The position numbers were made by a program, and so were the translations under genes. Shown here one piece after another: positions 1 through 64,000 of a stretch of DNA of 64,000 nucleotides. Positions within the stretch are counted from its first letter, which is position 1, and the number at the start of each line of letters is the position of its first letter. Under the pieces are notes generated by a model. That model saw only the letters and a program-made list of their open reading frames with translations, made no database searches and was not told the origin of the DNA. The stretch is from an uncultured Spirochaetota bacterium (GTDB lineage: Bacteria > Spirochaetota > Brevinematia > Brevinematales > JAOACQ01), in the NCBI GenBank assembly GCA_963835575.1, contig CAWIGG010000006.1:101151-165150 (forward strand). The letters run 5' to 3'.

Positions 1-1
1 T

Positions 2-1402
2 TTGAGTTTTCTTACGTTTATGTTTCTCCTTGTCCTGGGCGGTTGTTCCCTGAAGTCCGGGGGCGGCGGGAACTCGGGCGGAACGGGTACACAGAATTCT
101 TCATCGAGCGTAGTTTCTCTGTCTTTTCCGGCCGGAACGGCCGGTGTTTCCACTAATATCGGAAGCCTGACAATTTCAATTCCCTCAGGCGCGCTGGACC
201 ACAACGAAACAATAACGGTCATTCCGTATTTTTATTCTTCAGAACTGGCGGCGGTCAGGGGGATCAGCCCGTTCCCTTCCGGAGTGCAGTTCCTGCCCGA
301 CGGCCTTTCCTTCCTGAAGCCGGTAACCATTGAGATACCGACCGAACTCCCCATGGCCACAAACTCGAATTACGGGATTTTTCTATTTAACAGCCTTTCC
401 AACCGGTGGGAACAGCAGACAAATTCAGGGTTCTGCTTTGATACCGAAATAGTCCGTTATCAGATAAGCCATTTCTGCACATACGGCGTTTCCCCATGGA
501 CCGGTGAAGGTCTCGGGACTTTCGGCCAGGTTCTTGAAACCTCCGGCGGGGATGCGGCCTATGCCGCGTTAAAGGCTTCCATTCTTCAGGGCGGAGCGAT
601 CTTCCAGATGAAAAAGAAAGTCGGCGGGGACACCTACCAGGTCTGCGGCGTCGGGTTTGACGTCCAGTACAGCTACAACGGCGACGAAGACCAGTATCTT
701 GAAACAGTGGGCGACACCTCTTCGACAACCACCTATCTGAACTACAGCGAGGACCGTATTGCTTCCGGAGGCCAGCTGGTCTATACCGCCCTGGTGACGC
801 TTTACTGGAAAAAAGTCGATCTGGAAAAATACAAGGTTGATATGACGTTTAGTGTTACCAGCTCGACTTTCGACCTGGGGGGCGGAGACAGCACCACGCT
901 TTCGGGATACAGCGCCTCATTGAGCTTTACCGTCACGGTCGACCCTTCGACAAACGGCGTGTTTGTCATCGGCATGGACCCGAACTATCCGGCGCTGGAA
1001 TACAGTCCTATGAATCAAAGCCTGGGAGGCTGGACGCTGTCGACGTCGGATTCCGATTTGTGGTTCCAGAACCTCCAGTGCCCTTCAACCCTGGACCTGG
1101 AGGATGGAATATTCGGGGAAATCACCACGGCCCCCGGAACCAGTTATTTTTTTATTTTTCCTGATGATAACATTGCCTCGGTGGAGATGTGGAGCGCTGA
1201 TGAGCATGGAAATCCGGTGTATGCCACGAGTCTTTACCTGTGGGCAATATTAAGGCAGTTTACCGACGAAACAATTGAAAACGACGGGTTCCCCATGGTT
1301 CTTTCCGACGGCTGGAGTTCAAGCGGGTCCGGCGTCATGTACGGGGATATGGGAAGTATTTTTAACGGCAGTTATACGATCAATGTCTCCAAAGTGCAGT
1401 AA
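2..1402 (+). CDS. putative lipoprotein of unknown function (5' end at or just beyond window edge)
   Basis: 466-aa ORF. The N-terminus ...FMFLLVLGGC has a lipobox followed by a Gly/Ser-rich linker. TAA stop. No family recognised. Confidence 0.5.
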   Translation: MSFLTFMFLLVLGGCSLKSGGGGNSGGTGTQNSSSSVVSLSFPAGTAGVSTNIGSLTISIPSGALDHNETITVIPYFYSSELAAVRGISPFPSGVQFLPDGLSFLKPVTIEIPTELPMATNSNYGIFLFNSLSNRWEQQTNSGFCFDTEIVRYQISHFCTYGVSPWTGEGLGTFGQVLETSGGDAAYAALKASILQGGAIFQMKKKVGGDTYQVCGVGFDVQYSYNGDEDQYLETVGDTSSTTTYLNYSEDRIASGGQLVYTALVTLYWKKVDLEKYKVDMTFSVTSSTFDLGGGDSTTLSGYSASLSFTVTVDPSTNGVFVIGMDPNYPALEYSPMNQSLGGWTLSTSDSDLWFQNLQCPSTLDLEDGIFGEITTAPGTSYFFIFPDDNIASVEMWSADEHGNPVYATSLYLWAILRQFTDETIENDGFPMVLSDGWSSSGSGVMYGDMGSIFNGSYTINVSKVQ

Positions 1403-1493
1403 AGCATCCGGAGAATGTGACATAAATTCAAGGCTTCATATCCTTCTGTCATTAAAACGGCTTGACCGGCCAATATTATAGCCTTTGCTTAAT

Positions 1494-1522
1494 TTGACAA
1501 TTTACTACAAGTGTAGTATATT
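1494..1522 (+). promoter_or_regulatory. sigma70-like promoter with embedded palindromic operator
   Basis: TTGACA (1494-1499), 17-nt spacer, TATATT (1517-1522). The spacer and -10 contain the palindrome TACTACaagtGTAGTA (1503-1518). A GAAGGAG SD and the ATG at 1547 follow. Confidence 0.55.
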
Positions 1523-1546
1523 TTATCCTATTTTGAAGGAGAAAAA

Positions 1547-2305
1547 ATGCATAGATATTTGAGGAAGGGGATTTTATTATTGATTCCATTATTGCTTGTT
1601 GTCTTCGGATTGTCATTCGGCGAAAGCCCCGGTACCGATCCTCTCTGGCAGAAAGCCGTTGAAATTGCCGGTAAAAACACAAACTGGATCCCCGGAAGTA
1701 TGGTTATAAAAAACTATGTGCTGGAAGACAATGGTAATGTCAAGAAAGCCGAGGAAATAACAATGAAAGTATACCTGGATGAGAGCAATCAGCTTAAATC
1801 GGATATGGTAAAATATCTGGAAAACGGTGTTGACGTGACGGAAAGAAAGAAAAATGATATTGAGCAGGCGCAGAGGAGAAATAGGAGTACCAATCAAGGT
1901 CAGGGGATGGTTGTGGGCTTTGATAATTTGATTCCTTTCATGCCGGGCGAACAGACAAATATCTCGCTCAGCAATACCGGCCGGAAAGTGACCTATGAAA
2001 ACAGGGAATTCATCATTTACGACTATAAAAGAATAATGATTAGAGGCGAAAGACAGATTGGCAGGGCCTGGCTCGATTCTGTAACAGGCATACCTCTGAA
2101 AATCGTTTATACCGTCGATCCGCTTCCGCAGTATGTATTCAGGATAACGAACGAGGTGGTGTTTCAGACCGGCAGAAAAGGCGGATGGTATCCCGAAAGA
2201 CTGACCGTGGACGGCTCCGGAGGATTCATTCTGTTTAAAATGAATATGAACAGCACGACATTCTTCTCAGATTTCTGGAACCAGGATAAAGTTAAGAAGA
2301 AATAA
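1547..2305 (+). CDS. secreted hypothetical protein
   Basis: 252-aa ORF with a signal peptide (MHRYLRKGILLLIPLLLVVFGLSFG) and an SD upstream. No family recognised with confidence. Confidence 0.55.
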   Translation: MHRYLRKGILLLIPLLLVVFGLSFGESPGTDPLWQKAVEIAGKNTNWIPGSMVIKNYVLEDNGNVKKAEEITMKVYLDESNQLKSDMVKYLENGVDVTERKKNDIEQAQRRNRSTNQGQGMVVGFDNLIPFMPGEQTNISLSNTGRKVTYENREFIIYDYKRIMIRGERQIGRAWLDSVTGIPLKIVYTVDPLPQYVFRITNEVVFQTGRKGGWYPERLTVDGSGGFILFKMNMNSTTFFSDFWNQDKVKKK

Positions 2306-2696
2306 TCAGGGCAAAAGTTAATAACCAAAGAGATGTGAATTTCACCAAGAAGAACGGACCAATTTTTCCTGGTGCCGCTTCAATATTGAATCTTCCGCTA
2401 AGCCGCGCGAAGTCACGCCAATAATTAAAAAGTATTCTTGAAAAATTAATAATTTCACACAGGGCCCACAGAGTTCGCGGAGCTATAATAAAGATTAACT
2501 TGAAAACTCTGTGTCCTCTGTGAACTCTGTATGAAAAACAAATACCAATCTATCCTTCTTTTACTAATAGTTGGAAATCCATTCCGCGCAGCAGATGTTG
2601 CTGTTGGAAAGATTGGTCCCGTACATTGCGATAATATTATCGTAAATCGCTTTTGCCGCGGCAGAAGAATTATGGTATGGGCACAGGCAGATCCCT

Positions 2697-6596: not shown

Positions 6597-6652
6597 TTTT
6601 TTTATTAGAAATAACTAATCATAGAGTATAATTCTTAAGTAATATGTGTTGT

Positions 6653-7204
6653 AACCACAGATTACACAGATGTCACAGATGATAATTTTGAAAGTATCAG
6701 TGTAATTATGCTATAATTGTGAATATGAAAAAAGAAGAAAGTAAAGATCGTCGGGCTTATGGGATTATTGGTGCGGCTATTGAGGCACACAAAGAATTAG
6801 GATCAGGATATCTGGAAGCAGTATATTAGGAAAGCCTTGAATTAGAATTTAAACTCAGAAAAATCCCTTATATATCTCACCCCATTCTTAAGGTTTTTTA
6901 TAAAGATATTGAACTGAAAAAATATTATGTGCCTGATTTTATCGTATATAATGAAGTGATTCTGGAAATTAAAGCGGAAAGATGTTTGACGAGAGTAGAT
7001 GAGGCGCAAATAATAAACAGTTTAAAGAATTCGGGAATGAAAGTAGGTTTGCCGATTAATTTTGGTGAAAGCTCATTAAAATTCAAACGTTTTGTTTACT
7101 GAAACATATTTCATATTTCGTTTATTGTTAATAGAATGAATTCGAATTGAGATTTAATATTGATACCACAGAAATAATCTGTGAAATCAGTGAAATCTGT
7201 GGTT
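6653..7204. repeat. inverted-repeat-bracketed cassette carrying a GxxExxY ORF (CACAGAT-word arms)
   Basis: The left arm is AACCACAGATTACACAGATGTCACAGATG (6653-6681). The right arm at 7176-7204 reverse-complements to AACCACAGATTTCACTGATTTCACAGATT, matching at about 25/29 positions. Confidence 0.7.
6725..7102 (+). pseudogene. GxxExxY protein (PD-(D/E)XK-like) with in-frame TAG
   Basis: The translation MKKEESKDRRAYGIIGAAIEAHKELGSGYLEAVY*ESLELEFKL...PDFIVYNEVILEIKA... is collinear with the intact paralog at 11561-11962. The TAG at 6827-6829 sits where the paralog has CAG (EAVYQEAL). This gene is absent from the ORF track. Confidence 0.8.
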
Positions 7205-7294
7205 TCAGCCAAAAAAATTAAAAACTGAAAAAGTATACTATATAAGGATATAATTCTATATCTTTTTCTGCCGATTCTATAACAGGAGTAGAAA

Positions 7295-10953: not shown

Positions 10954-11505
10954 ATGCTAGTACCGGCTGTATTAGGCGGCATTGTTGTAGTGATATTGCT
11001 CTGGGTGATGATGGCTTATAACGGTTTTATCAAGCTGAGGAACCAGGCGGATGAATCCTGGAGCGGTATAGACGTCCAGCTCAAGCGGCGCTATGACCTG
11101 ATCCCGAACCTTGTGGAAACCGTCAAAGGCTACGCCAAGCATGAGCAGTCCACTTTCGAGAAAGTGGTCCAGGCCAGGAACGCGGCCATGAGCGCCCAGA
11201 AAGTGGAAGATAAAGCCCAGGCGGAGAACATGCTTTCAGGCGCCCTGAAATCTATTTTTGCCCTCGCTGAAAACTATCCGGAGCTCAAGGCGAACCAGAA
11301 TTTCCTCGATCTGCAGAAGAACCTGGCGGAAATTGAGGACCAGCTCCAGAACGCCAGAAGATATTACAACGCCGTTGTCCGCGACTATAATATCCAGTGC
11401 GAAAGCTTCCCGTCTGTCATACTTGCCGGCATGTTCGGCTTCAAAAAACGGGCCTTCTTTGAAATAGCGGAAGCCGAAAAGCAGAATGTCAAGGTGCAGT
11501 TTTAA
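10954..11505 (+). CDS. lemA: LemA family protein
   Basis: N-terminal TM segment followed by YNGFIKLRNQADESWSGIDVQLKRRYDLIPNLVETVKGYAKHEQ, the typical LemA core. Confidence 0.9.
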   Translation: MLVPAVLGGIVVVILLWVMMAYNGFIKLRNQADESWSGIDVQLKRRYDLIPNLVETVKGYAKHEQSTFEKVVQARNAAMSAQKVEDKAQAENMLSGALKSIFALAENYPELKANQNFLDLQKNLAEIEDQLQNARRYYNAVVRDYNIQCESFPSVILAGMFGFKKRAFFEIAEAEKQNVKVQF

Positions 11506-11520
11506 AGGGAACTGGGTTAT

Positions 11521-11992
11521 CCGCTAAGCCACGCCAAGGAACGCTAAGAAGAATATATAATTGGTAAAAAAAATGGCTGAAGATTTATTATTTAAGGAAG
11601 AAGTTTTTAAAATCATGGGTTGTGCTATGAAAGTGCAGGATGAGTTAGGGAACGGTTTTCTGGAAGCGGTTTATCAGGAAGCTTTAGAAATTGAATTAAA
11701 GCTCATGCAAATCCCTTTTGAATCTCAGAAAAGACTGAGAATTAATTATAAAGGACAGCTGCTTCAAAAAGAATATATTGCCGATTTAATATGCTTTGAC
11801 AAAATAATATTGGAATTGAAAGTTGAAGAGAAGCTGACTTCTATTGATGAAGCTCAGATTTTAAATTATTTGAAAGTTACGGGTTTATCGCTTGGACTCA
11901 TTATAAATTTCGGATCAAAGAAGAAACTTGAGTGGAAACGTTTTGCAAACACTCAACAATAACCTTAGCGTATCTTCGCGATCCTTAGCGGG
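11521..11992. repeat. inverted-repeat-bracketed cassette carrying a GxxExxY ORF (CGCTAAG-word arms)
   Basis: The left arm is CCGCTAAGCCACGCCAAGGAACGCTAAGAAG (11521-11551). The right arm at 11963-11992 reverse-complements to CCGCTAAGGATCGCGAAGATACGCTAAGG. Confidence 0.7.
11561..11962 (+). CDS. GxxExxY protein (PD-(D/E)XK nuclease-like family)
   Basis: Contains LGNGFLEAVYQEALEIEL (the GxxExxY motif) and ADLICFDKIILELKV (a D...ExK-like motif). The start is either TTG at 11561 or ATG at 11573. Confidence 0.85.
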   Translation: MVKKMAEDLLFKEEVFKIMGCAMKVQDELGNGFLEAVYQEALEIELKLMQIPFESQKRLRINYKGQLLQKEYIADLICFDKIILELKVEEKLTSIDEAQILNYLKVTGLSLGLIINFGSKKKLEWKRFANTQQ

Positions 11993-13750: not shown

Positions 13751-13901
13751 AAAGAAATAATTCACAGGAAGGCGGGAAGACGGGAAGACGGGAAGGTTTT
13801 TAATGATTTATTTATTTTCATTGCCGTTCAAGTTATAAATTTATTAAACTGTGATTTGCTAGAAATTTGAAAGAACCGGAATTTCACACAGAGTGCACAG
13901 A

Positions 13902-15602
13902 CAGACTGTGTGAAAAAGGCGGTGTAAGACAATAAAGGCGGAGAAAAATCCTCAAATTTATTTTAATAAGGTATAATATGTAATCAAATTTGAGGTGTGT
14001 AAGATGAACCATATAACAGGAGAGCCAAGAGACCAGATAGTACTTTACGCGGAAACTATTGATGGTTTGATAGAAGAGAAGAACCCTGTAAGAATTATAG
14101 ACGCATATGTGAGCAGACTAAACATCAGGAGGTTGGGATTCAAAATTAAAGAGGCGAAAAAAGGGCGTCCATCCTACACAGCGGATGTATTGTTGAAAAT
14201 ATATATTTACGGATATTTGAACAAAGTCAGGACCACGAGGAAATTAGAAAACGAATGTAAAAGGAATACGGAACTGATATGGCTGACCTGCCGCTTAGCG
14301 CCTGATTTTAAGACCATAGCGGATTTCAGAAGGGATAATATTAAGGGCATAAAAAACATTTTCAAAGAGTTTTTGAAAGTATGCCGCAAATTAGAACTGC
14401 TGACATTTAAATTAACAGCGACAGATGGAACGAAAATAAGTGGGCAAAACAGTCTGGGTAATATTTATAGGCGGGAAAGCATTGAAGGAGTTGAGAAAAA
14501 GATTAATGAAAAAATAGACAAATATCTTTTGGAATTGGATAAAAATGATAAATCGGAAGAAAACGAGTTTGAGTTTTTATCCAGCAACATTGAAAAAAAG
14601 CTGGACAGCCTCAAGACAAGAAAAGAAAAAGTAGAAGCGATAAAAAAAATGTTTGAGGCCGATCCGGAACTTGAAATCGTTTACGGGAATGATCCCGACG
14701 GCAGAATTGGGAAAGATAAAGGGAAAACGGATGTTTTGTACAACGCGCAGATAGCAGTGGACGAAAAGAATAAATTGATTGTCGCGGTGGATGTAACCAA
14801 TGAAAGTAATGATGTTCATCAAGCGGGAAATATGGTTAATAAAGTTGAAGAAATAAAGAAAGAACTTGAAGCCGAACCGGGATTAAAAACCATACATGTC
14901 CTGGATGCCGGATATTATTGCGAAAGTGAGATATTACCGCTTACAGACGGGGGTCATGAAATCTATATTCCAAGCCCGCGCGATGAAAAAGAAAAAAAGT
15001 CCAGGTACAAAGAGCAGCAGAAAGAAAGTATCCCGGCAAAAGGATATCTGGCAGAAGATTTCAAGATTGATAAAGAGAAGAACCAGTTGATTTGTCCGCA
15101 AGGATTACGATTAAATAATCAAAGTGTATATCAGGATAAAAACACGGGGATTACTGTAGCGGAATTCAAGTGCAGGAACGAGAATTGTGAGAAGAAGCAT
15201 TTATGCACAAAAAGCAAAGAAGGCAGGACGGTAAAGTTATCGGTGCGAAAGGAAGATATGGATAAATTCGATGAGAAGGTCCGAAGTGAATTGGGGCAAA
15301 AGATTGTTGCAATCAGAAAAGAGTTGGCAGAACATCCATTTGGAACAATAAAAGGAAATTTTGGTTATAATAATTTCTTGCTGAAGGGGATTGATAAAGT
15401 AAAAAGCGAGTTTAATTTCACGGCATTTATCTATAATTTTAAAAGAGTTCTGAATATTGCTGGTTTTGATAAGTTATTAGCCGCAATATAGTCTGAATTT
15501 CAATGATTATCAGTAATTTTTTATTCAGGCTCTTCTTTAAAGTAAGCAGGAACCTTTAGATGCCTGATCTTATAAATGTATTCTCTTTTTTCACACAGTC
15601 TG
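13902..15602 (+). mobile_element. IS1182-family insertion sequence (~1.7 kb)
   Basis: 16-bp terminal inverted repeat CAGACTGTGTGAAAAA (13902-13917, and complement of 15587-15602) flanking a single transposase ORF. AGA is present on both flanks and may be a 3-bp duplication. Confidence 0.75.
14004..15491 (+). CDS. IS1182-family DDE transposase
   Basis: The N-terminus PVRIIDAYV...GRPSYTADVLLKIYIYGYLNKVRTTRKLENECKRNTELIWL...PDFKTIADFRRDN is the InsH-N/DUF772 type. The C-terminus HPFGTIKGNFGYNNFLLKGIDKV is also characteristic. GAGGTG SD before the ATG at 14004. Confidence 0.8.
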   Translation: MNHITGEPRDQIVLYAETIDGLIEEKNPVRIIDAYVSRLNIRRLGFKIKEAKKGRPSYTADVLLKIYIYGYLNKVRTTRKLENECKRNTELIWLTCRLAPDFKTIADFRRDNIKGIKNIFKEFLKVCRKLELLTFKLTATDGTKISGQNSLGNIYRRESIEGVEKKINEKIDKYLLELDKNDKSEENEFEFLSSNIEKKLDSLKTRKEKVEAIKKMFEADPELEIVYGNDPDGRIGKDKGKTDVLYNAQIAVDEKNKLIVAVDVTNESNDVHQAGNMVNKVEEIKKELEAEPGLKTIHVLDAGYYCESEILPLTDGGHEIYIPSPRDEKEKKSRYKEQQKESIPAKGYLAEDFKIDKEKNQLICPQGLRLNNQSVYQDKNTGITVAEFKCRNENCEKKHLCTKSKEGRTVKLSVRKEDMDKFDEKVRSELGQKIVAIRKELAEHPFGTIKGNFGYNNFLLKGIDKVKSEFNFTAFIYNFKRVLNIAGFDKLLAAI

Positions 15603-15817
15603 AGAGAGCACAGAGTAAGCTATAATTCTTTATCTGCATAAGATTAAACAATATCCCTTTGTACTCCGTGTTCTCTGTGCGGGAAAAATAATTTTTTAGG
15701 ATTCTGAAACATTATTTTTTTGCTGTCTAAATTGCAATTTCAAATCTGGAAATTAAATTTTATTTCTAAAATCTCCAGATTTTTCTTCGTGTCTTCCCGC
15801 CTTCCTGTAAAACCCGT

Positions 15818-16213
15818 CTATTTTTCTTCGACCTTTTTTATGATGATGTAAATTCCCGCTCCGATGATCAGCTCGGTAAAGAGAAGAAGGAGCCAGTTCA
15901 GGAGCGCCGGATAGCTTCCGGGAAGGCCCACGGCGAATTTCGAGAGAATAATGCGGGCAATCCAGAAGATCAGGATAATGTACATTGAGGTCCGGAGAAG
16001 CTTCTTATCGACGGCGGTAAACATGCTGACAAGCAGTATGATGCCGGCGAAAAGCTCCACAATACCGAAGATCACTTCAAGGGCCAGGGTGTATCTGAGC
16101 GTGAAATAACTTTCCTCAATGCCTGGAATGATCCCCAGGAGCCCTAATATCAGAAAGAACACCGCGATGAGAAAAATGAGAAGGTTGATGGGAGTGACTT
16201 TGTGTTTAGCCAT
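15818..16213 (-). CDS. small integral membrane protein (about 4 TM)
   Basis: 131-aa hydrophobic ORF with an AGGAGG SD 6 nt upstream, lying directly downstream of the ATPase gene. Confidence 0.6.
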   Translation of the reverse strand: MAKHKVTPINLLIFLIAVFFLILGLLGIIPGIEESYFTLRYTLALEVIFGIVELFAGIILLVSMFTAVDKKLLRTSMYIILIFWIARIILSKFAVGLPGSYPALLNWLLLLFTELIIGAGIYIIIKKVEEK

Positions 16214-16241
16214 GACGGCCTCCTTTTTATTTATTGCCTAT

Positions 16242-16267
16242 TAATCTAATCTAATCTAATCTTAATC
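16242..16267. repeat. pentanucleotide microsatellite (TAATC)4-T-(TAATC)1
   Basis: Read directly from the sequence: taatctaatctaatctaatcttaatc. It overlaps the ATPase stop codon (16262-16264) and lies in the 48-nt spacer before the membrane-protein gene. Confidence 0.85.
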
Positions 16268-16975: not shown

Positions 16976-17038
16976 GGAGGCTCCTTCTAATCGGAAAAGT
17001 ATTGTTAGTCGAATAACTTATAACTTTAACAAAAGGCC

Positions 17039-17184
17039 CGTCATTGCGAGCATCAATTTATCTTCTTTGCCGCTGATTATCGTGCGAAGCAATCTGTAAT
17101 TTCATAAAGTCATCTTTATTTGCAGACAGTTTGCTTCGCTCTAAAATTATCAGCAAGGCATAAAACAGGATGCTCGCAATGACG
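17039..17184. repeat. nested inverted repeats with no ORF inside
   Basis: Outer: CGTCATTGCGAGCATC (17039-17054) versus GATGCTCGCAATGACG (17169-17184), a perfect 16-bp IR. Inner: GCGAAGCAATCTG (17084-17096) versus CAGTTTGCTTCGC (17127-17139), matching 12/13. Confidence 0.8.
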
Positions 17185-17223
17185 GCTTTTATTTAACATA
17201 ATCATTTTACGTTCGAAAATCCT

Positions 17224-18714: not shown

Positions 18715-18824
18715 TATTTTCCTCACATATGATGTTCTTATTAAGCGGATTATTATTTATAGATTTTAGAAGCTTCTGGGTTTATCAGCATGATAATAAA
18801 ATTTTACTTTAAAACGCCGTCCGG

Positions 18825-23644: not shown

Positions 23645-23700
23645 TCCTTTTCAAACCTTTCCAATAAATTAATTATTCTTCTTTAATATTTTCAATTTTC

Positions 23701-23808
23701 ACAGGAAGACGGGAAGATACAGAGATCAATTTATGACAAACCGCCTTATTCCTTCCCGCCCCTTCAATGCGCTGCGCTTACTCAGGACATCGCTTCCCTT
23801 CTTCCTGT
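23701..23808. repeat. GGAAGACGGGAAG-word inverted repeat, empty
   Basis: ACAGGAAGACGGGAAG (23701-23716) versus CTTCCCTTCTTCCTGT (23793-23808), matching 15/16. A third arm-like copy, TTCCTTCCCGCC, lies at about 23749-23760. The word family is the same as at 13764/15808. Confidence 0.75.
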
Positions 23809-23870
23809 TAAATGTTGTAAAGCGGGCAAAAATATAATGGATATTCTTAACTTAATAATAACTAATATTC

Positions 23871-28870: not shown

Positions 28871-28939
28871 AGGCCTCACCCCCGTCCCCTCTCCAAATTT
28901 GGAGAGGGGTGCCGAGCTTTGCGAGGCGGGGTGAAGCCT
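28871..28939. repeat. nested palindrome downstream of carB
   Basis: Outer: AGGCCTCACCCC (28871-) versus CGGGGTGAAGCCT (28927-28939). Inner: a perfect hairpin CCCCTCTCC-aaattt-GGAGAGGGG (28886-28909). Confidence 0.75.
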
Positions 28940-35228: not shown

Positions 35229-35287
35229 ATGAACCCTTAATTGATGTGCGGCACATCAGCTTTTAAGAAATTTTAATATTGATTAAA

Positions 35288-35422
35288 GACCTTTGCACGG
35301 TAAACTTAAGTTAATTCGCTACCTGATAAAACTTTAGGCAATAAATTGCCGCTTTAAACTGGACTTTTGCACGGTTTCTATTTAATTATCCGTTAATGGT
35401 TTGCGGAAACCGTGCAAAAGTC
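35288..35422. repeat. GACTTTTGCACGG-word inverted repeat (plus one extra half-copy)
   Basis: Perfect 17-bp IR GACTTTTGCACGGTTTC (35362-35378) versus GAAACCGTGCAAAAGTC (35406-35422). There is a third degenerate copy, GACCTTTGCACGGTAAAC (35288-35305), and a nearby palindrome GATGTGCgGCACATC (35243-35257). Confidence 0.8.
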
Positions 35423-35472
35423 TTGATTAAATATAATAAAAAGAGAGTAAAAAGTGAAATTATCAAGTTTGT

Positions 35473-41315: not shown

Positions 41316-41501
41316 CGCCAACAATTTCAGCTAACGGTGCGGCTTGGCGACGTTTTGCGGTCCGAAGGACTGGCGCGACTTTTGCGTCCCACGCAGCAAA
41401 AGTCGTGACAGAGCCAAATGTGTCCGCAGGACCGAGGACCGCCCGGAGACCGCAGTCGAGGACGGACCGGAGCGCTAAGCCGTCGTTGTGCGAAGTTGGC
41501 A
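41316..41501. repeat. GC-rich ~190-bp imperfect palindrome between two AT-rich ORFs (attC-like layout)
   Basis: Minus-strand reading: TGCCAACTTCGCACAACGACGGCTTAGCGC...GCCGCACCGTTAGCTGAAATTGTTGGCG. The terminal boxes GCCAAC/GTTGGC pair. An internal hairpin CGACTTTTGC/GCAAAAGTCG is present. Confidence 0.7.
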
Positions 41502-41966
41502 TTAATTTTTGATAATTAATAAGTCTTCATTTGATGGTATTTCACCATTTTTATATTTATGTAAATCACAGTATAATAGCAATAAAATTATTGAACCAAA
41601 TCTCAATTGTTTCCAGTTTTTTCCTTTTGATTCATCAATTAAATCTTTTGCATATTTAGCTAAATTTGGACATTGATCAGCTAACTTTCTTGATTCTTTA
41701 ATTATAAAACCTTCATTTCCATTATTTATATGGTCTTGAAATTCTTTGATAAATTCATCATCTTTAATATTATTTTGAAATCTTATTTTTGATGTTATTT
41801 GCATTGCGAGCATTTCTGCATCTTGTAAATTTGATAATTTACTTTGAACATCAATTACATTAATATTTTTAATTTTTTCCCGGCTCATTTTTTTCATAAC
41901 ATTAGTAATTACCATAATTAGTATTATAACAACAACTATAAAACCTAATACATAAATAAGAGTCAT
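41502..41966 (-). CDS. hypothetical protein with N-terminal TM helix, AT-rich
   Basis: 154-aa ORF with a GGAGG SD. N-terminus MTLIYVLGFIVVVIILIMVI. No family recognised. Confidence 0.55.
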   Translation of the reverse strand: MTLIYVLGFIVVVIILIMVITNVMKKMSREKIKNINVIDVQSKLSNLQDAEMLAMQITSKIRFQNNIKDDEFIKEFQDHINNGNEGFIIKESRKLADQCPNLAKYAKDLIDESKGKNWKQLRFGSIILLLLYCDLHKYKNGEIPSNEDLLIIKN

Positions 41967-42050
41967 ATATCAAAACCTCCAACTAAAATTAATGCCAACT
42001 TCGCACAGACGGTGCGGCTATACGACGTGGCGGTGGTGTTTTTCTAATGT

Positions 42051-51311: not shown

Positions 51312-51523
51312 TTAAGGGCAGTTCCAAAAACTCAAAATCAATCAGATATTTCCAACATAGGTTTTGGAACTGCCCCGGTTATAGAACCTCTTGTAAATTT
51401 AATTGCCGCTACCGTATAGAGTTCGCTGGTTGATGATCTTTTCAGACAGCGAACTCGGGCGGTAGCATGAACTCATATAATAGCGGCAGTTCTAAATATT
51501 TGAGTTTTTAGAACTGCCCTTAA
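51312..51523. repeat. MITE-like element: 25-bp terminal inverted repeats flanked by TTAA, three internal hairpins
   Basis: TTAAGGGCAGTTCCAAAAACTCAAA (51312-51336) versus TTTGAGTTTTTAGAACTGCCCTTAA (51499-51523), matching 24/25. Extra GGCAGTTC copies lie at about 51366 and 51485. The central IR is GCCGCTACCGTATAGAGTTCGCTG (51405-51428) versus CAGCGAACTCGGGCGGTAGC (51447-51466). Confidence 0.7.
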
Positions 51524-53425: not shown

Positions 53426-53851
53426 AGTATCGATTATTCGAAATTTATTATTAAAATCAGCTAAGCTGACAAAATTTTTATTTGCCCGCTTATTGTAAGG
53501 GGCTGGTTTGACTCCGAAAATGAAATAACCGACAGGCAAGCCGGAAAAAAGAGGCTGTATTATAAAGATCCTGATAGACCAGAAGATAATTATGCCGGTC
53601 AGAAGCGCCTTCCCGATCTGAGAGGTTAAAAGCTCTTTTGAGTAAAAGAAAGGTAAATAGGCGAAGATCAGCCAGAATAATAAAACGGAGAAGTTTGACG
53701 TATTTAATAACTGCTTTATGACTCTTTTTTTGATGGCTGGCAGTTCTTTCAGATTTTCATCCCAATTGAACGTTTTTGGGAATATAATATGGGATAGAGC
53801 GCAGATCAAATGAAAAACGCCCCCGATTTTTATTAATAGTTCATTGGGCAT
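53324..53851 (-). CDS. small membrane protein whose 3' end reads into the IS terminus
   Basis: The hydrophobic ORF has about 4 TM segments within residues 1-115. The last ~34 codons (53324-53425) are encoded by IS sequence. Confidence 0.5.
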   Translation of the reverse strand: MPNELLIKIGGVFHLICALSHIIFPKTFNWDENLKELPAIKKRVIKQLLNTSNFSVLLFWLIFAYLPFFYSKELLTSQIGKALLTGIIIFWSIRIFIIQPLFSGLPVGYFIFGVKPAPYNKRANKNFVSLADFNNKFRIIDTQTIQNPLYFLKYWAYFIKLCARDTQHSSKFTFR

Positions 53852-61227: not shown

Positions 61228-61394
61228 ATGAACTCCTTTATTTTGAATTTCAAGTATTAATAACCAATTTTCGCTTAGCAAAGCATGCGAAGTTCAGCCA
61301 AAACTTGATTCAATTAACACATCGCTTGCAGAGCGTGTAGAATCGCAGTTAGCGGTGACTAACACAGCATAAAGCAGCTGTTAAGCACCGTTAC

Positions 61395-62225
61395 TTATTT
61401 TTCTGAATCTATCACTCTTTCCAGCCAGTCTTTTGTCAGGCAGTTAAATAATTCCGGCTGTTCTATCTCAAGATTATGACCGGCTTTATCAAGAACAACA
61501 AAGGATGCTCTCGGATAATTCTCCAGGAAATCCCATGAATCAATATACCCCACGACAGAGTCCTGTTTTCCCATGATTATTAAAACCGGTTTATCTAATG
61601 GCTGTCCCAGGCGATCAACATCAAAAGTATAAGCCGCTTTTTTCCCCCAATGATTGTTAATAAAGGTATTATCCGCGATTCTCAGTCCGGGCAATACTGA
61701 TTCTTTATATCTCATCCATACTTTTTTTGTCTGGATAACCGAATTAATTGATTCAAAATATGATCTTTCTTCATCAGACAGAATCTCACTGAGAGAATCG
61801 TCTTTTTCTAAAACGCTGAATACAGGTGCGTTTTTATATTGTGTTTCATGCCTGGCCAATGGGCAGACAAGAAGTAACCCTTTAACCATACGCTGTTTTT
61901 TCTGCACGATGCCTCTTGCCAGATACCCTCCATATGATTTTCCGGCTATAAGGAAAGGCTGATCCGGAATGACCCCTTCAATAAAATCAATTACCAGCTC
62001 CAGCATTCTATCTGCGTTTGACAGCCATTCATTTCCTTTCGTTTTTCCCATTCCCGGCAGATCAAAATAAATCCTTCTGAAAATTCCATCATATCCTGTA
62101 AACAGCGGTTCCATGCACTCTTTCAGGGACCGGTGATCCAGGCCCCATCCATGAATCATAATTATTGGCAAACCGGAACCGATAGATTCATAATAAATAT
62201 TCATTCCATGCGATTGATATTCCAT
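61395..62225 (-). CDS. alpha/beta hydrolase
   Basis: PIIMIHGWG, nucleophile elbow GKSYGGYLA, and a C-terminal GHNLEIEQPE. AGAGGGG SD before the ATG at 62225. Confidence 0.75.
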   Translation of the reverse strand: MEYQSHGMNIYYESIGSGLPIIMIHGWGLDHRSLKECMEPLFTGYDGIFRRIYFDLPGMGKTKGNEWLSNADRMLELVIDFIEGVIPDQPFLIAGKSYGGYLARGIVQKKQRMVKGLLLVCPLARHETQYKNAPVFSVLEKDDSLSEILSDEERSYFESINSVIQTKKVWMRYKESVLPGLRIADNTFINNHWGKKAAYTFDVDRLGQPLDKPVLIIMGKQDSVVGYIDSWDFLENYPRASFVVLDKAGHNLEIEQPELFNCLTKDWLERVIDSEK

Positions 62226-62344
62226 AAATTCCCCTCTTTGAAATAATTTAAAACTTCCGGCGTCAAACGGCTGCGGCAAAACGGCGTTTACCGTCCCGTC
62301 AGGAAGCCGGGTATTGTGTCATTACATCCATATCTAAATAATAA

Positions 62345-63283
62345 CTACTGCATTTCAAATACTTTTCTTATTGCAGGGACAGGAAGGCCGGACTTTTCAA
62401 CCAAAACCTCAAGTTCTTTGGCAAGGCAATTCATTTCATCCGGCGCCTGAGATACATGATATGCCAATCCAACTTCACCTAATTTTGAAGAAAGTAAAGC
62501 CCGGAATCCCGTGGCTATAATAAAACGTGGAAGAAATTTAATTATGTTTTGGCTTTTTGGAACTATTCGATATCCAAGAGCTTGAAGAACTTTAAATGAT
62601 TCACGCATCGCATCTACAAAAAGATTGAGGTCTTGAGTACTTTTGGCTAAAGTTTTAATATCAAGTCCATACTTTATTGTAAGTTTGGCAATGAGCGGAA
62701 CGCCCACGGCATGTGTGGCAAGAAAATCTAAAATACAATTTGAGGCTTTCGCTTTGAAACCTCCTTTACGTATGATATTTATAAGCCGGGTAAGTCTTGG
62801 TGTTATAGTCCCATTTATCTCGCCAAACGGCACTGCGATTGATGTAGATATCATGGCTTTTATGACACTACCTTCTCTTTTACCTGCTCCAAAAACAAAG
62901 CCCATCAAAACACGTTCTTGACCCAATGCTTTAGTATATTCATCCGGTCCTGCGAGGTTATTTATCATAAAAACTATGTTTGGAGATTTATTTTCAGCTA
63001 AAATCGGTAATAATTCTGATACTTGGTTCTTCCGTATGACAACAAAGATATAGTCATAAATGTCTTCTGAGTTCAGTTTGTTGATAACGGGCACTTTAGT
63101 AACACTACGCTTTTTGTTAAATGGATTTTCAATAATGATTCCATCTTCACGGATTTCATCGAAACGCTTTCCTCTTGCAAGTATGGTGACATTTATTCCA
63201 CCTTTATACAGAACAGAAGCACATGCTGATCCATTCACACCAGCGCCTATAACAAGTATTCTTGCATTATCGGTTCTCATCAT
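62345..63283 (-). CDS. ketopantoate reductase (ApbA/PanE) family oxidoreductase
   Basis: Rossmann start RILVIGAGVNGSACASVL. GGGAG SD before the ATG at 63283. Confidence 0.6.
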   Translation of the reverse strand: MMRTDNARILVIGAGVNGSACASVLYKGGINVTILARGKRFDEIREDGIIIENPFNKKRSVTKVPVINKLNSEDIYDYIFVVIRKNQVSELLPILAENKSPNIVFMINNLAGPDEYTKALGQERVLMGFVFGAGKREGSVIKAMISTSIAVPFGEINGTITPRLTRLINIIRKGGFKAKASNCILDFLATHAVGVPLIAKLTIKYGLDIKTLAKSTQDLNLFVDAMRESFKVLQALGYRIVPKSQNIIKFLPRFIIATGFRALLSSKLGEVGLAYHVSQAPDEMNCLAKELEVLVEKSGLPVPAIRKVFEMQ

Positions 63284-63501
63284 AATGCTCCCTGCAAATT
63301 TATTTTTAATATTTAAAATAAAATTATACACCCTTTGAAGCATAAAAATCCAAAATTATAAAATTATTCTTAATTTTTGAGCCTTTACAGTTTATGTACT
63401 CTGATTCACAGTCTGGATCAGTACTCATCCTGGTCCCCGCACAATTTTTTTATTTTATTATTTTTCTTCATCATCGTCCCCCGGCGGTTTTTTCCTGCCT
63501 A

Positions 63502-63723
63502 GGCCGGAGTTTATTTTTCATTTTCAAATCCTCCTTGCCTTTACCAGCCGGCACGGATGCCGGCGTTTGAGGGCCTCATTGTCGCTTTTCCCTTGAACTC
63601 CAAAAATTTCCGGTTTACCCCAGTGCGATGGCAACTACCCGGAAATTTTTGGAGTGATTCTAACTTCCGCCAGCAGGATGCCAGTTTGGCCCGATTAGAA
63701 AAAATGAAAGATAAACTCCGGCC
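63502..63723. repeat. nested inverted repeats with no ORF inside
   Basis: Outer: GGCCGGAGTTTATTTTTCATTTT (63502-63524) versus AAAATGAAAGATAAACTCCGGCC (63701-63723), matching 22/23. Inner: a perfect 16-bp IR CTCCAAAAATTTCCGG (63598-63613) versus CCGGAAATTTTTGGAG (63639-63654). A hairpin GCCGGCAcggaTGCCGGC lies at 63547-63564. Confidence 0.85.
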
Positions 63724-63779
63724 CCTGCTCTACCGGGGGACAATCCTGCTGCCGATGCGGCGTAGCCGCATCGTGCCCT

Positions 63780-64000
63780 TCACCTGTGCTTCGTCACCCC
63801 GATCTTCGGGCAGTATGTTTCAACAGGGCATTCGGAGCAAAGCGGCGATACCGGCCTGCAGATCGTCTGGCCGAAGGCGACAAGGATGTCGTTATACTCG
63901 ATCCACCATTCCAGGGGCAGTTTTTCACGCAGTCTGAATTCAGTTTCATCCGGCCATTTCGTTTTGACATAACCCCAGCGGTTTGATATCCGGTGTACAT
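63780..64000 (-). CDS. nth: endonuclease III, C-terminal part (5' end outside window)
   Basis: Minus-strand translation: ...[66 protein letters not shown]. It carries the [4Fe-4S] loop C-x6-C-x2-C-x5-C. The TGA stop is at 63780-63782. It is missing from the ORF track because no start codon lies inside the window. Confidence 0.85.

What the first reader, a model, noticed from the sequence alone, without database searches (positions are those of the whole stretch)
1..64000. Window-wide family of nested 'word' palindromes filling intergenic spacers
At least 13 intergenic regions contain inverted-repeat pairs, often nested two deep, built from short GC-richer words. The words seen are: CACAGAG/CACAGAT (2453-2530, 6653/7204, 13885/15680); CGCTAAGCC (2395, 11521/11992, 41471, 61271); ACAGGAAG[AG]CGGGAAG (13764/15808, 23701/23808, degenerate at 2341); CGTCATTGCGAGC with GCGAAGCAATC (17039-17184); CCCCTCTCC with GGCCTCACCCC (28871-28939); GACTTTTGCACGG (35288-35422); GGGCAGTTC (51312-51523); GGCCGGAGTTTAT with CTCCAAAAATTTCCGG (63502-63723); and GCCAACTTCGCAC with ACGGTGCGGC (40490-42038, 61282-61394). 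Two pairs enclose GxxExxY ORFs, one encloses an IS, and most enclose only 30-200 bp. The arms differ in word but share the same architecture. That pattern argues for a common mechanism or structure rather than a single repeat sequence. In RNA, each would form a long stem with its cargo in the loop. This is the layout of rRNA intervening sequences, which RNase III excises and some of which carry small ORFs. I offer that only as an analogy, not as a demonstrated relationship.
Basis: partly seen in the sequence, partly recalled or inferred. Interest (0 to 1): 0.65.

Follow-up and report, generated by a model that had tools for sequence, protein, structure and literature searches.

The report
Word-array palindromes around GxxExxY nucleases
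About half of the 'word' palindromes here are copies of a small element found in many bacterial phyla, whose full form carries a tiny nuclease gene between two inverted arrays of a repeated 7-letter word. The rest are unrelated hairpins, insertion-sequence ends or chance matches, so there is no single window-wide family.

Summary
The inverted repeats are real. Intergenic pairs number 22 against 4.1±2.0 in shuffles. Some listed items are chance level (61282-61394, 40490, 2341).

They are not one family.

**Class A** has five modules and one solo array between 2.3 and 23.8 kb. Each arm is three copies of a 7-nt word (CGCTAAG, CACAGAT/G or CGGGAAG) at 9-10 nt spacing. Two modules enclose GxxExxY genes, which encode a minimal Cas4-like PD-(D/E)xK nuclease; one gene is intact and one is a pseudogene. 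Three modules are gene-less. One of these holds a second module that is itself split by an IS1182.

The same layout flanks 83-86% of 76 GxxExxY genes from about ten phyla. Gene-less hairpins with the same words are far more common than gene-bearing ones. Words match between arms at 93%, spacers at only about 50%. Mismatches show no G:U bias, and there is no target-site duplication. The word type tracks protein residues 22-23.

My best reading is a selfish nuclease-plus-palindrome system acting on DNA, resembling REPIN/RAYT or homing elements. The mechanism is inferred, not shown.

**Classes B and C** (17038-17185 and 28872-28939) are two other two-word hairpin families also found in other phyla. 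The remaining items are singletons or IS ends. The rRNA-intervening-sequence and RNase III analogy is not supported, but it is not excluded.

The parts
2393..2422 (+). Solo left-arm-type word array: TTC-CGCTAAG, CGCGAAG and CGCCAAT at a 10-nt period. It uses the same word type as the 11.5-kb cassette and has no right partner.
   Evidence: Read from the sequence; word positions.
2453..2531 (.). Module M1, a gene-less CACAGAG-type hairpin. It has two words on the left and three on the right. The loop contains GCTATAAT.
   Evidence: The fold gives z -6.7, with three 6-7-bp helices made of the words and separated by 2x2 loops. It is homologous to the inner module at 13.9/15.7 kb (score 45 against 21.7±3.7) and to the 6.6-kb cassette with its ORF removed (38 against 24.6±3.7, reached by 1 of 200 shuffles).
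6650..6683 (+). Module M2, left arm: AACC-CACAGAT three times at a 9-nt period.
6725..7102 (+). GxxExxY pseudogene. An in-frame TAG at 6827-6829 sits where the family has Q in the motif VYQE.
   Evidence: tblastn E 6e-37 over 115-125 residues; sequence.
7174..7207 (+). Module M2, right arm: ATCTGTG, ATCAGTG, ATCTGTG-GTT.
11517..11548 (+). Module M3, left arm: TTATC-CGCTAAG, CGCCAAG and CGCTAAG at a 10-nt period.
11573..11962 (+). Intact GxxExxY gene of 129 aa, inserted between LemA (10954-11505) and DUF2207 (12026-13750).
   Evidence: TIGR04256 at 143 bits against a cut-off of 35; PF13366 at 139 bits. AlphaFold2 pLDDT 91. The best solved match is Cas4 SSO0001. LemA and DUF2207 lie 5-79 nt apart in relatives.
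11964..11992 (+). Module M3, right arm: CTTAGCG, CTTCGCG, CTTAGCG-GG.
13761..13797 (+). Module M4, outer left arm: TTCACAGGAAG followed by CGGGAAG three times.
   Evidence: (pair I3).
13882..13893 (+). Left arm of the inner CACAGAG-type module nested in M4. Its last 7 nt are one copy of the apparent IS target duplication.
13894..15608 (+). IS1182-family insertion sequence. The transposase is at 13995-15491 and its own inverted repeats are at 13893-13917/15587-15611. It is flanked by the direct repeat CACAGAG at 13887-13893 and 15609-15615. Boundaries are good to ±3 nt.
   Evidence: NF033551 at 319 bits against a cut-off of 270.
15663..15679 (+). Right arm of the inner CACAGAG-type module (ACTCCGTG, CTCTGTG).
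15784..15811 (+). Module M4, outer right arm: CTTCGTG, CTTCCCG, CCTTCCTGT.
23698..23811 (.). Module M5, a gene-less CGGGAAG-type module with the same terminal sequence as M4 (TTCACAGGAAGRCGGGAAGA). It lies 53 nt from an IS66 end.
   Evidence: The fold is weak, z -2.3.
17038..17185 (.). Class B hairpin. The outer word is CGTCATTGCGAG and the inner word GAAGCAATC. Both flanks are T-rich.
   Evidence: Fold z -10.9. GTCATTGCGAG occurs in 9 of 80 loci from other phyla, and in nearly all of them GAAGCAATC follows.
28872..28939 (.). Class C hairpin. The outer word is CCTCACCCC and the inner palindrome CCCCTCTCC...GGAGAGGGG. It lies downstream of carB (25595-28825).
   Evidence: Fold z -5.2. CCCTCTCC...GGAGAGGG hairpins occur in L014, L045, L083, L088 and L136; in L014, L088 and L136 the second word CTCACCC/GGGTGAG is present as well.
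35271..35439 (.). Singleton composite inverted repeat with three copies of TTTGCACGG. No relatives were found.
   Evidence: Fold z -3.95.
41329..41493 (.). GC-rich long imperfect hairpin between a methyltransferase gene and ORF154.
   Evidence: DNA fold z -3.6.
41487..42007 (-). Perfect 23-nt inverted repeat (41487-41509/41985-42007) enclosing an AT-rich orphan ORF (41502-41966, 154 aa). This ORF is not a GxxExxY gene.
   Evidence: The only match among 5.8 billion proteins is the ORF itself.
51312..51523 (.). Singleton composite palindrome built on GGGCAGTTC. It lies about 330 nt from the left end of a second IS1182-family element.
63502..63723 (.). Singleton nested inverted repeat (23-nt outer arms, 17-nt perfect inner arms) downstream of an endonuclease III gene on the minus strand.
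   Evidence: Fold z -6.2 for the inner hairpin..

Best explanation
The window holds several unrelated kinds of inverted repeat. The kind that produces the 'word' signal is class A, at 2393-2531, 6650-7207, 11517-11992, 13761-15811 and 23698-23811.

**Anatomy.** Class A is a small palindromic element found in many phyla.
- Each arm is about 30 bp. It holds three copies of a 7-nt word (roughly C-R-C-N-R-A-K) at 9-10 nt spacing.
- The outermost word carries a short extension (ATCC or AACC).
- The full-length form is a cassette of about 480 bp. It encodes a 125-130-aa GxxExxY protein, a minimal PD-(D/E)xK nuclease of the Cas4/lambda-exonuclease type.
- Many more copies are gene-less hairpins of 40-200 bp or solo arrays.

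**Proposed mechanism.**
1. The nuclease recognises its own words as DNA. Three sites about one helical turn apart on each arm would suit an oligomer.
2. The cassette and the hairpins form an autonomous and non-autonomous selfish pair. Either the gene homes into hairpins that carry its words, or it mobilises them in trans as a RAYT mobilises REPINs.
3. Copies land in intergenic DNA just after genes, co-oriented with the upstream gene, and inside older copies. Landing inside older copies produces the nesting.
4. Genes then decay (pseudogene at 6725-7102) and are deleted, leaving hairpins.

**Shown:** the architecture, its link to the gene, its conservation across phyla, insertion into an operon, descent of a gene-less copy from a cassette, and the absence of a target duplication.

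**Inferred:** that the nuclease binds or cuts the words, and any mobility mechanism.
For: **Link between gene and arrays.**
- In 76 GxxExxY loci from about ten phyla, 83-86% have flank-to-flank inverted repeats above the 99th/95th percentile of 358 same-geometry controls. The median score is 17 against 7.5.
- The arms are word triads with periods of 9 or 10 nt in 99 of 100 cases.
- Four of five further GxxExxY ORFs met by chance have the same layout with other words, namely CGCAAAG and ACGAAT.
- A cultured Bacteroides finegoldii has the arrangement radA-[CACAGAG x3]-GxxExxY-[CTCTGTG x3].

**The words are the selected unit.**
- They are 93% identical between arms. Spacers are 50-53% identical. 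This holds for gene cassettes and for 106 gene-less hairpins alike.
- The words are kept across phyla even though the proteins are only about 60% identical.

**Word type tracks the protein.**
- Words ending in G go with His at residue 22 in 31 of 32 cases, and never with Asn at residue 23.
- Words ending in T go with Asn23 in 23 of 29 cases.
- The nearest protein neighbour shares the word in 37 of 65 cases, against 15.4 when words are permuted.
- Distant arrays in a locus share the cassette's word in 28% of cases, against 11% when permuted (p=0.0045).

**Insertion.** LemA and DUF2207 are 5-79 nt apart in the four relatives examined (42-52% protein identity). They are 520 nt apart here, and 476 of those nt are the cassette.

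**Decay and descent.**
- One copy is a pseudogene.
- M1 aligns with the M2 cassette once its ORF is removed.
- Two CACAGAG and two CGGGAAG modules lie within 64 kb.

**The nuclease is probably active.**
- E31, D71, E81 and K83 are invariant in 81 sequences.
- The model has pLDDT 91, and its best structural match is Cas4 SSO0001 (E 8e-5).

**Orientation.** The cassette is co-oriented with the upstream gene in 60 of 68 cases, against a background of 70%.
Against: - No mobility event was observed. No closely related strains were available for a presence/absence comparison at nucleotide resolution.
- In an arm-first census only 2 of 80 loci carry a GxxExxY gene. Most copies therefore exist without a nearby nuclease. 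The hairpins could have a life, or a host function, of their own.
- The protein-word association is confounded by shared descent.
- Each genome holds several word types, and only 28% of distant arrays match the local cassette.
- More distant family members differ. A Treponema copy has a single 11-nt inverted repeat, and a Fusobacteria copy has direct repeats.
- Some genes sit between two complete hairpins rather than inside one.
- A 125-aa nuclease core has no obvious separate DNA-reading domain.
- RNA-level function cannot be excluded, because the words alone would still give three 7-10-bp helices.
- The genome of origin could not be fetched, so there is no genome-wide census.
Confidence: 0.45

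Rival explanations
1. The elements act as RNA. Once transcribed with the host operon, the two arms pair. A gene-less copy folds on itself. The helix is then cut by RNase III or protects the 3' end of the upstream mRNA. The element would thus be an intervening-sequence-like or REP-like transcript module, and the nuclease gene would be only its cargo.
For: - The arms are complementary, and both arms change word together.
- M1 folds far better than shuffles (z -6.7).
- Cassettes are co-oriented with the upstream gene in 60 of 68 cases.
- Arms lie within 10 nt of an upstream stop codon in 17 of 81 cases, against 19 of 480 random positions.
- One hairpin lies between two tRNAs in a 16S-23S spacer, where it must be processed out.
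- Most lack U-tracts, so they are not plain terminators.
Against: - Spacers between words are only 50-53% complementary, so there is no continuous helix.
- Among the cassette arms, mismatches are mainly transversions (256 against 153 transitions), with no sense-strand G:U excess (85 against 68, p=0.2).
- Pairing does not explain three identical words per arm at a fixed 9-10 nt period.
- Pairing does not explain the tie between word type and protein residues 22-23.
- No Rfam family matches.
Confidence: 0.25
2. The word arrays are binding sites for a conserved host DNA-binding protein, such as a nucleoid, replication or regulatory protein. Both GxxExxY genes and IS elements merely tend to land next to them.
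For: - The arrays are periodic at about one helical turn.
- Solo arrays and hairpins are far more common than gene-bearing copies.
- IS1182 and IS66 sit in or next to modules in the window.
- Some termini read TTATCCACG, one base from a DnaA box.
Against: - The words differ between modules of one genome: CGCTAAG, CACAGAT/G and CGGGAAG here, and CGCGAAT and CGCAAAG in L014. One host factor cannot explain this.
- The commonest terminus is CGATCCACG, not a DnaA box.
- Word type follows the enclosed protein.
- The inverted pairing of arrays is not needed for a titration site.
Confidence: 0.1
3. Nothing special is present. The pairs are ordinary terminators, IS ends and chance matches, and the reader grouped them by eye.
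For: - Some listed items are chance level: 61270-61400, 40440-40530 and the isolated CGCTAAGCC copies.
- Three IS elements supply inverted repeats of their own.
- 17038-17185 has T-rich flanks on both sides.
- Any bacterial genome has more intergenic hairpins than shuffles do.
Against: - Triad arrays number 8 against 0.47 in shuffles.
- The same architecture flanks 83-86% of GxxExxY genes in unrelated phyla, against 1-5% of controls.
- It occurs in at least 120 metagenome stretches for a single 16-base arm pattern.
- Only one of about eleven modules has a U-tract.
Confidence: 0.03

Closest known systems
REPIN/RAYT systems: REP doublets with their REP-associated tyrosine transposase (PMC3116915, PMC3337134)
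   Same: - Short intergenic palindromic elements made of two inverted halves separated by a spacer.
- Gene-less copies are many and the enzyme gene is rare.
- The enzyme gene is flanked by the same repeats in inverted orientation.
- No target duplication.
- Repeat type is matched to enzyme type.
   Different: - The enzyme is a 125-aa PD-(D/E)xK nuclease, not an IS200/IS605-type Y1 transposase.
- Each arm is a tandem triad of a 7-nt word, not a single imperfect palindrome.
- The gene is multi-copy, decays to pseudogenes, and is scattered across phyla at about 60% identity. RAYTs are single-copy and vertically inherited.
- Several word types coexist in one genome.
Free-standing or intron-borne homing endonuclease genes, including the PD-(D/E)xK enzyme I-Ssp6803I (own knowledge, not checked here)
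   Same: - A small nuclease gene sits exactly inside a symmetric site.
- The cycle of invasion, pseudogene and loss is visible.
- Distribution across phyla is patchy.
- No target duplication.
   Different: - The putative target is a dispersed repeat rather than one conserved host gene.
- There is no intron or intein.
- Cleavage and homing have not been demonstrated.
- Foldseek did not list I-Ssp6803I among the top 50 matches.
MITEs and TIR transposons with sub-terminal repeated binding sites, such as Tn7, Mu and Ac/Ds (own knowledge)
   Same: - Terminal inverted repeats built from several short direct repeats.
- Short deletion derivatives outnumber full copies.
- Copies nest in one another.
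   Different: - No target-site duplication: at most 2 of 25 at any assumed boundary.
- No DDE or serine/tyrosine recombinase.
- The element is only about 480 bp.
23S rRNA intervening sequences, for example the 428-nt Coxiella element with its S23p ORF (PMC4990558, abstract seen)
   Same: - Complementary flanks around a small ORF.
- A selfish character.
- The family of the enclosed ORF is also found in many free-standing copies.
   Different: - The element is not in an rRNA helix.
- The ORF is a nuclease, not the four-helix-bundle S23p.
- The flanks are word arrays with non-complementary spacers.
- There is no evidence of RNase III excision.
Integron gene cassettes and attC sites (own knowledge)
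   Same: Single promoter-less ORFs are bounded by imperfect palindromes. This was considered for the region 40.2-43.0 kb.
   Different: - No integrase is present.
- The core sites are only approximate (GCACAAC and GTTAGCT against RYYYAAC and GTTRRRY).
- The repeats around ORF154 are inverted, not direct.
- Two of the three spacers do not fold better than shuffles.

Membership tests
GxxExxY protein family (TIGR04256 / Pfam PF13366 PDDEXK_3) | Profile score above the curated cut-off. | tested here: met
   TIGR04256 scores 143.1 bits against a cut-off of 35. PF13366 scores 139 bits against 22.
GxxExxY protein family (TIGR04256 / Pfam PF13366 PDDEXK_3) | GxxExxY motif together with the PD-(D/E)xK catalytic residues. 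| tested here: met
   G28, E31, Y34, D71, E81 and K83 are invariant in 81 aligned sequences, including the window protein.
GxxExxY protein family (TIGR04256 / Pfam PF13366 PDDEXK_3) | Restriction-endonuclease-like fold. | tested here: met
   The AlphaFold2 model has pLDDT 91.1. The best Foldseek hits are Cas4 SSO0001 (4ic1, E 8e-5, TM 0.56), then lambda exonuclease and RecE.
REPIN/RAYT | Enzyme is a Y1 (IS200/IS605-like) transposase. | tested here: not met
   The enclosed gene is a PD-(D/E)xK nuclease.
REPIN/RAYT | Enzyme gene flanked by the repeats in inverted orientation, with many gene-less doublets. | tested here: met
REPIN/RAYT | Single-copy, vertically inherited enzyme gene. | tested here: not met
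   - Two copies lie within 64 kb.
- A 78% identical paralogue sits on a contig of the same length, 432,856 bp.
- Relatives at 55-69% identity are scattered over about ten phyla and one archaeon.
MITE / DDE-type TIR transposon | Target-site duplication flanking the terminal inverted repeats. | tested here: not met
   At most 2 of 25 cassettes show a direct repeat of 3 nt or more at any boundary offset from 0 to 8 nt.
MITE / DDE-type TIR transposon | Cognate transposase in the full-length copy. | tested here: not met
   The only ORF is the GxxExxY nuclease.
rRNA intervening sequence | Located inside an rRNA helix. | tested here: not met
   No rRNA lies in the window. Among 167 loci the only rRNA operon (L151) has the hairpin in the spacer between two tRNAs, not in 23S.
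rRNA intervening sequence | Continuous complementary stem that serves as an RNase III substrate. | tested here: inconclusive
   Words are 93% complementary but spacers only 50-53%, and there is no G:U bias. Cleavage cannot be tested here.
rRNA intervening sequence | ORF, if any, of the S23p four-helix-bundle family. | tested here: not met
   The ORF belongs to PF13366.
Rho-independent terminator | Short G+C-rich stem followed by a U-tract. | tested here: not met
   The 3' flanks of the modules lack T-runs, except at 17038-17185. Arms can be separated by 400-2000 nt.
Integron cassette / attC (for 40.2-43.0 kb) | R''/R' core sites, a folded attC in every spacer, and an integrase nearby. | tested here: inconclusive
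   One spacer folds (z -3.6) and has approximate core sites. The other two spacers do not fold better than shuffles. None of the ORFs scanned in this region, 40513-43975, is an integrase. No attC model was available.
IS1182 family (13894-15608) | Transposase profile, terminal inverted repeats and flanking direct repeat. | tested here: met
   NF033551 scores 318.8 bits against a cut-off of 270. Inverted repeats of 25 nt at 84% (pair I10). A 7-nt direct repeat CACAGAG flanks the element.

The most novel reading that the evidence does not exclude
GxxExxY proteins are word-reading nucleases, with specificity set largely by residues 22-23 at the end of helix 1. Each paralogue would propagate its own type of word-triad palindrome. 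Together they would form a previously undescribed class of minimal mobile element. It would be about 480 bp when autonomous and 40-200 bp when not, would make no target duplication, and would need no transposase fold. Such elements would have spread through most bacterial phyla and would shape intergenic DNA, including nesting and hot spots for IS insertion.
Probability: 0.28. Interest if true: 0.8.

Novelty: new variant of a known kind. Interest (0 to 1): 0.62.

Why it matters
GxxExxY proteins are very common. One 129-aa query gave 2,212 relatives at E ≤ 1e-5. Yet the paper library holds nothing about their biology.

A fixed DNA architecture around the gene gives the family a concrete, testable function: a nuclease that acts on its own flanking words. 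That architecture is conserved across phyla and matched to two protein residues.

It would also explain a widespread class of intergenic 'word' repeats that annotators meet as spurious peptides. If the residue-word code holds, it would offer a small nuclease with a readable, changeable specificity.

For genome scanning, the practical lesson is that 'nested word palindromes' are not one thing. Class A, class B (GTCATTGCGAG/GAAGCAATC) and class C (CCTCACCCC/CCCTCTCC) are separate families found in many phyla, and they should be catalogued separately.

Tried and rejected
1. **Fetching the genome of origin for a census.** The exact products are not on record. Cluster look-up gave no names. Only ORF154 was found, on a 7-kb read assembly of the same locus.
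2. **Rfam.** No family reaches its threshold anywhere in the window.
3. **Solved structures by sequence.** Nothing was found.
4. **PADLOC and PHROGs for the GxxExxY protein.** No match, so it is not a listed defence or phage family.
5. **Viruses and plasmids as vehicles.** The arm pattern occurs in only 2 of 2.9 million viral contigs. The protein occurs in 8 of 72,556 plasmid records, all non-mobilizable.
6. **Target-site duplication.** Absent.
7. **Sense-strand G:U bias as a test for an RNA stem.** Absent.
8. **DnaA-box reading of the termini.** TTATCCACG appears in some copies, but the commonest terminus is CGATCCACG. Rejected.
9. **Integron/attC reading of 40.2-43.0 kb.** Weak; see the membership test.
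10. **GxxExxY remnants inside the gene-less modules.** None; tblastn finds only the two loci.
11. **Homologues of ORF154.** None.
12. **Class B or C words flanking small ORFs in the fetched loci.** No convincing case.
13. **Literature searches for intervening-sequence ORF paralogues with inverted repeats.** Unproductive.

Full report

An independent repeat search recovers the long pairs.

Intergenic inverted repeats are well above chance. With seeds of at least 10 nt and loops up to 600 nt, 22 pairs have both arms intergenic. Dinucleotide shuffles made separately for coding and intergenic segments give 4.07±1.96. Pairs inside genes are not clearly enriched.

A more specific signal is the tandem triad of one 7-mer at 8-11 nt spacing. 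The window has 8 such arrays, against 0.47 in shuffles.

Folding supports most modules:
- 17036-17185: z -10.9.
- 2440-2540: z -6.7.
- 63590-63660: z -6.2.
- 28860-28950: z -5.2.
- 35290-35435: z -3.95.

It does not support 61270-61400, 41967-42050, 42951-43024 or 40440-40530. Only one module (17038-17185) has T-rich flanks, so these are not plain terminators.

**2. They are not one family.**

*Class A, word arrays.*
- A solo array at 2393-2422 (CGCTAAG, CGCGAAG, CGCCAAT).
- M1 at 2453-2531 (CACAGAG, gene-less).
- M2 at 6650-7207 (CACAGAT three times on each side).
- M3 at 11517-11992 (CGCTAAG, CGCCAAG, CGCTAAG).
- M4 at 13761-15811 (CGGGAAG).
- M5 at 23698-23811 (CGGGAAG, gene-less, weak fold).

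*Class B.* 17038-17185 has two different nested words, CGTCATTGCGAG outside and GAAGCAATC inside.

*Class C.* 28872-28939 has CCTCACCCC outside and CCCCTCTCC...GGAGAGGGG inside.

*Others.*
- The ends of three IS elements: IS1182 at about 13894-15608, IS66 at 23864-25397, and a second IS1182-family element at 51852-53552.
- Singletons at 35271-35439, 51312-51523 and 63502-63723.
- A perfect 23-nt pair at 41487/42007 around an orphan ORF.

**3. Class A in the window.**

M3 encloses an intact GxxExxY gene (TIGR04256 at 143 bits; PF13366 at 139 bits). M2 encloses a pseudogene of the same family, with a TAG where the family has the Q of VYQE. No other GxxExxY remnant exists in the window.

M3 sits between LemA and DUF2207. 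In the four related contigs examined (42-52% protein identity) these two genes are 5-79 nt apart. Here they are 520 nt apart, and the cassette fills 476 of those nt. The cassette is therefore an insertion into an operon spacer.

M4 is nested three deep:
1. The outer CGGGAAG arms.
2. Inside them, a CACAGAG module homologous to M1 (score 45 against 21.7±3.7 in shuffles).
3. That inner module is split by an IS1182 flanked by a 7-nt direct repeat, CACAGAG.

M1 also aligns with M2 once the ORF is removed (38 against 24.6±3.7, reached by 1 of 200 shuffles). This fits gene-less copies being deletion derivatives of cassettes.

**4. The same architecture elsewhere.**

*Starting from the gene.*
- A scan of one genome per species for relatives of the M3 protein returned 80 loci at 53-69% identity. 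They come from Bacteroidota, Chloroflexota, Acidobacteriota, Planctomycetota, Nitrospirota, Gemmatimonadota, Verrucomicrobiota, Bacillota, Spirochaetota, other phyla and one archaeon.
- In 76 loci with both flanks available, the best upstream/downstream inverted repeat has a median score of 17. For 358 controls of the same geometry the median is 7.5. Of the 76 loci, 83-86% exceed the 99th/95th control percentile.
- The arms are triads such as ATC-CACGAAG-GA-CACGAAG-GAA-CACGAAG or AAC-CGCGAAT-GAA-CGCGAAT-GAA-CGCGAAT. The period is 9 or 10 nt in 99 of 100 cases.
- Four of five additional GxxExxY ORFs met by chance have the same layout with other words, CGCAAAG and ACGAAT.
- A cultured Bacteroides finegoldii has radA-[CACAGAG x3]-GxxExxY-[CTCTGTG x3].
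- More distant members differ. A Treponema copy has a single 11-nt inverted repeat, and a Fusobacteria copy has direct repeats.
- Some genes sit between two complete hairpins.

*Starting from the arm.*
- Of 85 arms in the 80 loci read, 28 are gene-less hairpins with less than 150 nt between the arms. Most of the rest are solo.
- Only 2 of the 80 loci carry a GxxExxY gene. Gene-less copies therefore far outnumber cassettes.
- Arms lie close to gene ends. 17 of 81 are within 10 nt of an upstream co-directional stop codon, against 19 of 480 random positions.
- The pattern is almost absent from viral contigs, with 2 hits.
- The protein is rare on plasmids, in 8 of 72,556 records.

**5. DNA or RNA?**

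- Between the two arms, word positions are 93% identical. Spacer positions are only 50% identical in cassettes and 53% in 106 gene-less hairpins.
- Among the cassette arms, mismatches are mainly transversions (256 against 153 transitions).
- Transitions that would be G:U on the sense strand are not in excess (85 against 68, p=0.2).
- A pairing model does not explain three identical words per arm at a fixed period. Several binding sites for an oligomeric protein, one turn apart, would explain it.
- There is no target-site duplication: at most 2 of 25 at any assumed boundary.
- Cassettes are co-oriented with the upstream gene in 60 of 68 cases, against a background of 70%. This suggests they rely on host transcription.
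- RNA function is not excluded. The words alone give three short helices. One hairpin sits between two tRNAs in a 16S-23S spacer.

**6. The protein, and its tie to the words.**

- E31, D71, E81 and K83 are invariant in 81 sequences.
- The AlphaFold2 model is confident, with pLDDT 91.
- Its best solved matches are Cas4 SSO0001 (E 8e-5), then lambda exonuclease and RecE.

Word type follows the protein.
- Words ending in G go with His22 in 31 of 32 cases, and never with Asn23.
- Words ending in T go with Asn23 in 23 of 29 cases.
- The closest cross-word pair is L003 and L040, at 74% identity and inserted after the same host gene. It differs as HR against YN at residues 22-23.
- Same-word pairs are only slightly more similar overall than different-word pairs (65% against 60%).
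- Within a locus, distant arrays share the cassette's word more often than expected (28% against 11%, p=0.0045).

Shared descent confounds all of these associations. They do show that gene and words travel and change as one unit.

**7. Explanation.**

I read class A as a selfish nuclease-plus-palindrome system acting on DNA. The cassette is the autonomous form. The hairpins are non-autonomous derivatives or landing sites. The nuclease reads the words. Whether it homes into hairpins or mobilises them in trans is open.

The steps that are shown and those that are inferred are listed in the best explanation. I give this reading 0.45. I give the RNA reading 0.25, a host-protein reading 0.10, and 'nothing special' 0.03. 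The remainder is unassigned.

**8. The other classes.**

- *Class B* is a real family that spans phyla. GTCATTGCGAG occurs 10 times in 9 of 80 unrelated loci (0.5 expected). In nearly all of them GAAGCAATC follows, and in several the mirror image GATTGCTTC...CTCGCAATGAC follows after a loop.
- *Class C* also recurs. Of five CCCTCTCC...GGAGAGGG hairpins in 1.75 Mb, three also carry the second word CTCACCC/GGGTGAG.
- No gene-bearing form of class B or C was found in the DNA I hold.
- The region 40.2-43.0 kb is a low-GC island holding a type IV restriction enzyme (Mrr), an orphan membrane ORF between perfect 23-nt inverted repeats, and a methyltransferase. An integron-like reading of this region is weak.

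**9. Comparison with what is known, and novelty.**

The closest analogue is the REPIN/RAYT system (PMC3116915, PMC3337134). Class A fails two of its defining features, the Y1 transposase and the single-copy vertical inheritance.

It also resembles homing endonuclease genes and MITEs. It lacks the single conserved target of the former, and the target duplication and transposase of the latter.

It is not a member of the rRNA intervening-sequence class.

The paper library holds nothing on GxxExxY biology beyond a table row and a passing mention. I cannot exclude a description in a database comment or a subscription journal. I therefore rate it a new variant of a known kind.

Noticed in passing
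window 23864-25397: An IS66-family element. The transposase is at 23929-25386 and the 21-nt inverted repeats are 95% complementary. It lies 53 nt from the gene-less CGGGAAG module M5. Together with the IS1182 inside M4, this hints that IS elements favour the modules as landing sites.
   Followed up: partly
window 51852-53552: A second IS1182-family element. The transposase is at 51939-53405 and the 29-nt inverted repeats are 76% complementary. Its ends differ from those of the first copy.
   Followed up: partly
window 40200-43020: A low-GC island (34% against about 43%). It holds a type IV methyl-directed restriction enzyme (Mrr, 42051-42950), an orphan 154-aa membrane ORF (41502-41966) and a class I methyltransferase (40513-41298). 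Mrr is itself flanked by a 17/20 inverted repeat at 42017-42036/42984-43003. A direct repeat ACGGTGCGGCT...CGACG lies at 41334 and 42009.
   Followed up: partly
window 41329-41493: A 165-nt GC-rich imperfect hairpin inside the AT-rich island. Its stem is built on CTTGGCG/CGCTAAG and its ends are approximately attC-like (GCACAAC...GTTAGCT on the minus strand). It has no Rfam match.
   Followed up: partly
window 16241-16271: A pentanucleotide tandem repeat, (TAATC)n, about 5 copies. It overlaps the 3' end of the minus-strand ORF 16262-16975 (AAA_15/AAA_21 ATPase, PtuA/AriA-like in PADLOC) and fills the spacer before the start of the minus-strand ORF 15818-16213. It could be a slippage-prone tract.
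   Followed up: no
window 63780-64000 (minus strand): The C-terminal end of an endonuclease III-type gene, with the Fe-S motif C-X6-C-X2-C-X5-C, runs off the window. The listed plus-strand ORF 63557-63937 is therefore probably spurious. The 63502-63723 palindrome lies just downstream of this gene.
   Followed up: partly
window 6707-6727 and 2481-2490, 15618-15626: M2 has an extended -10-like TGCTATAAT 9 nt before its ATG, which may mean a leaderless transcript. The loops of the gene-less M1 and of the inner M4 module keep GCTATAAT. M3 has TATAAT at 11554-11559.
   Followed up: no
L151 5924-5995: A gene-less CACGAAG-type hairpin sits exactly between two tRNA genes in a 16S-23S rRNA spacer of another organism, abutting one of the tRNAs.
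   Followed up: partly
L003, L011, L040, L043 (upstream of the GxxExxY match): These loci show the cassette directly after the stop codon of what looks like the same host gene (C-terminal end ...ENAKK.GVK.PM.K*) in Bacteroidota and Ignavibacteriales genomes. The words differ: CACGAAG in L003 and L011, CACGAAT in L040 and L043. This looks like an old insertion whose six words changed together.
   Followed up: partly
L014 5347-9100: One Nitrospirota contig carries a CGCAAAG-type GxxExxY cassette with a same-word gene-less hairpin on each side. About 3 kb away lies a CGCGAAT-type cassette. Two word types with two paralogues therefore sit side by side.
   Followed up: partly
L211 (Fusobacteria plasmid) around 1495-1869: Here a GxxExxY gene is flanked by 22-nt direct repeats (CAGATTTAATCCGTGTACCTAT), not inverted ones. 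This is a different arrangement in a distant family member.
   Followed up: no
window 17224-18726: A 500-aa ThyX with two Thy1 stretches, apparently an internally duplicated or fused flavin-dependent thymidylate synthase.
   Followed up: no
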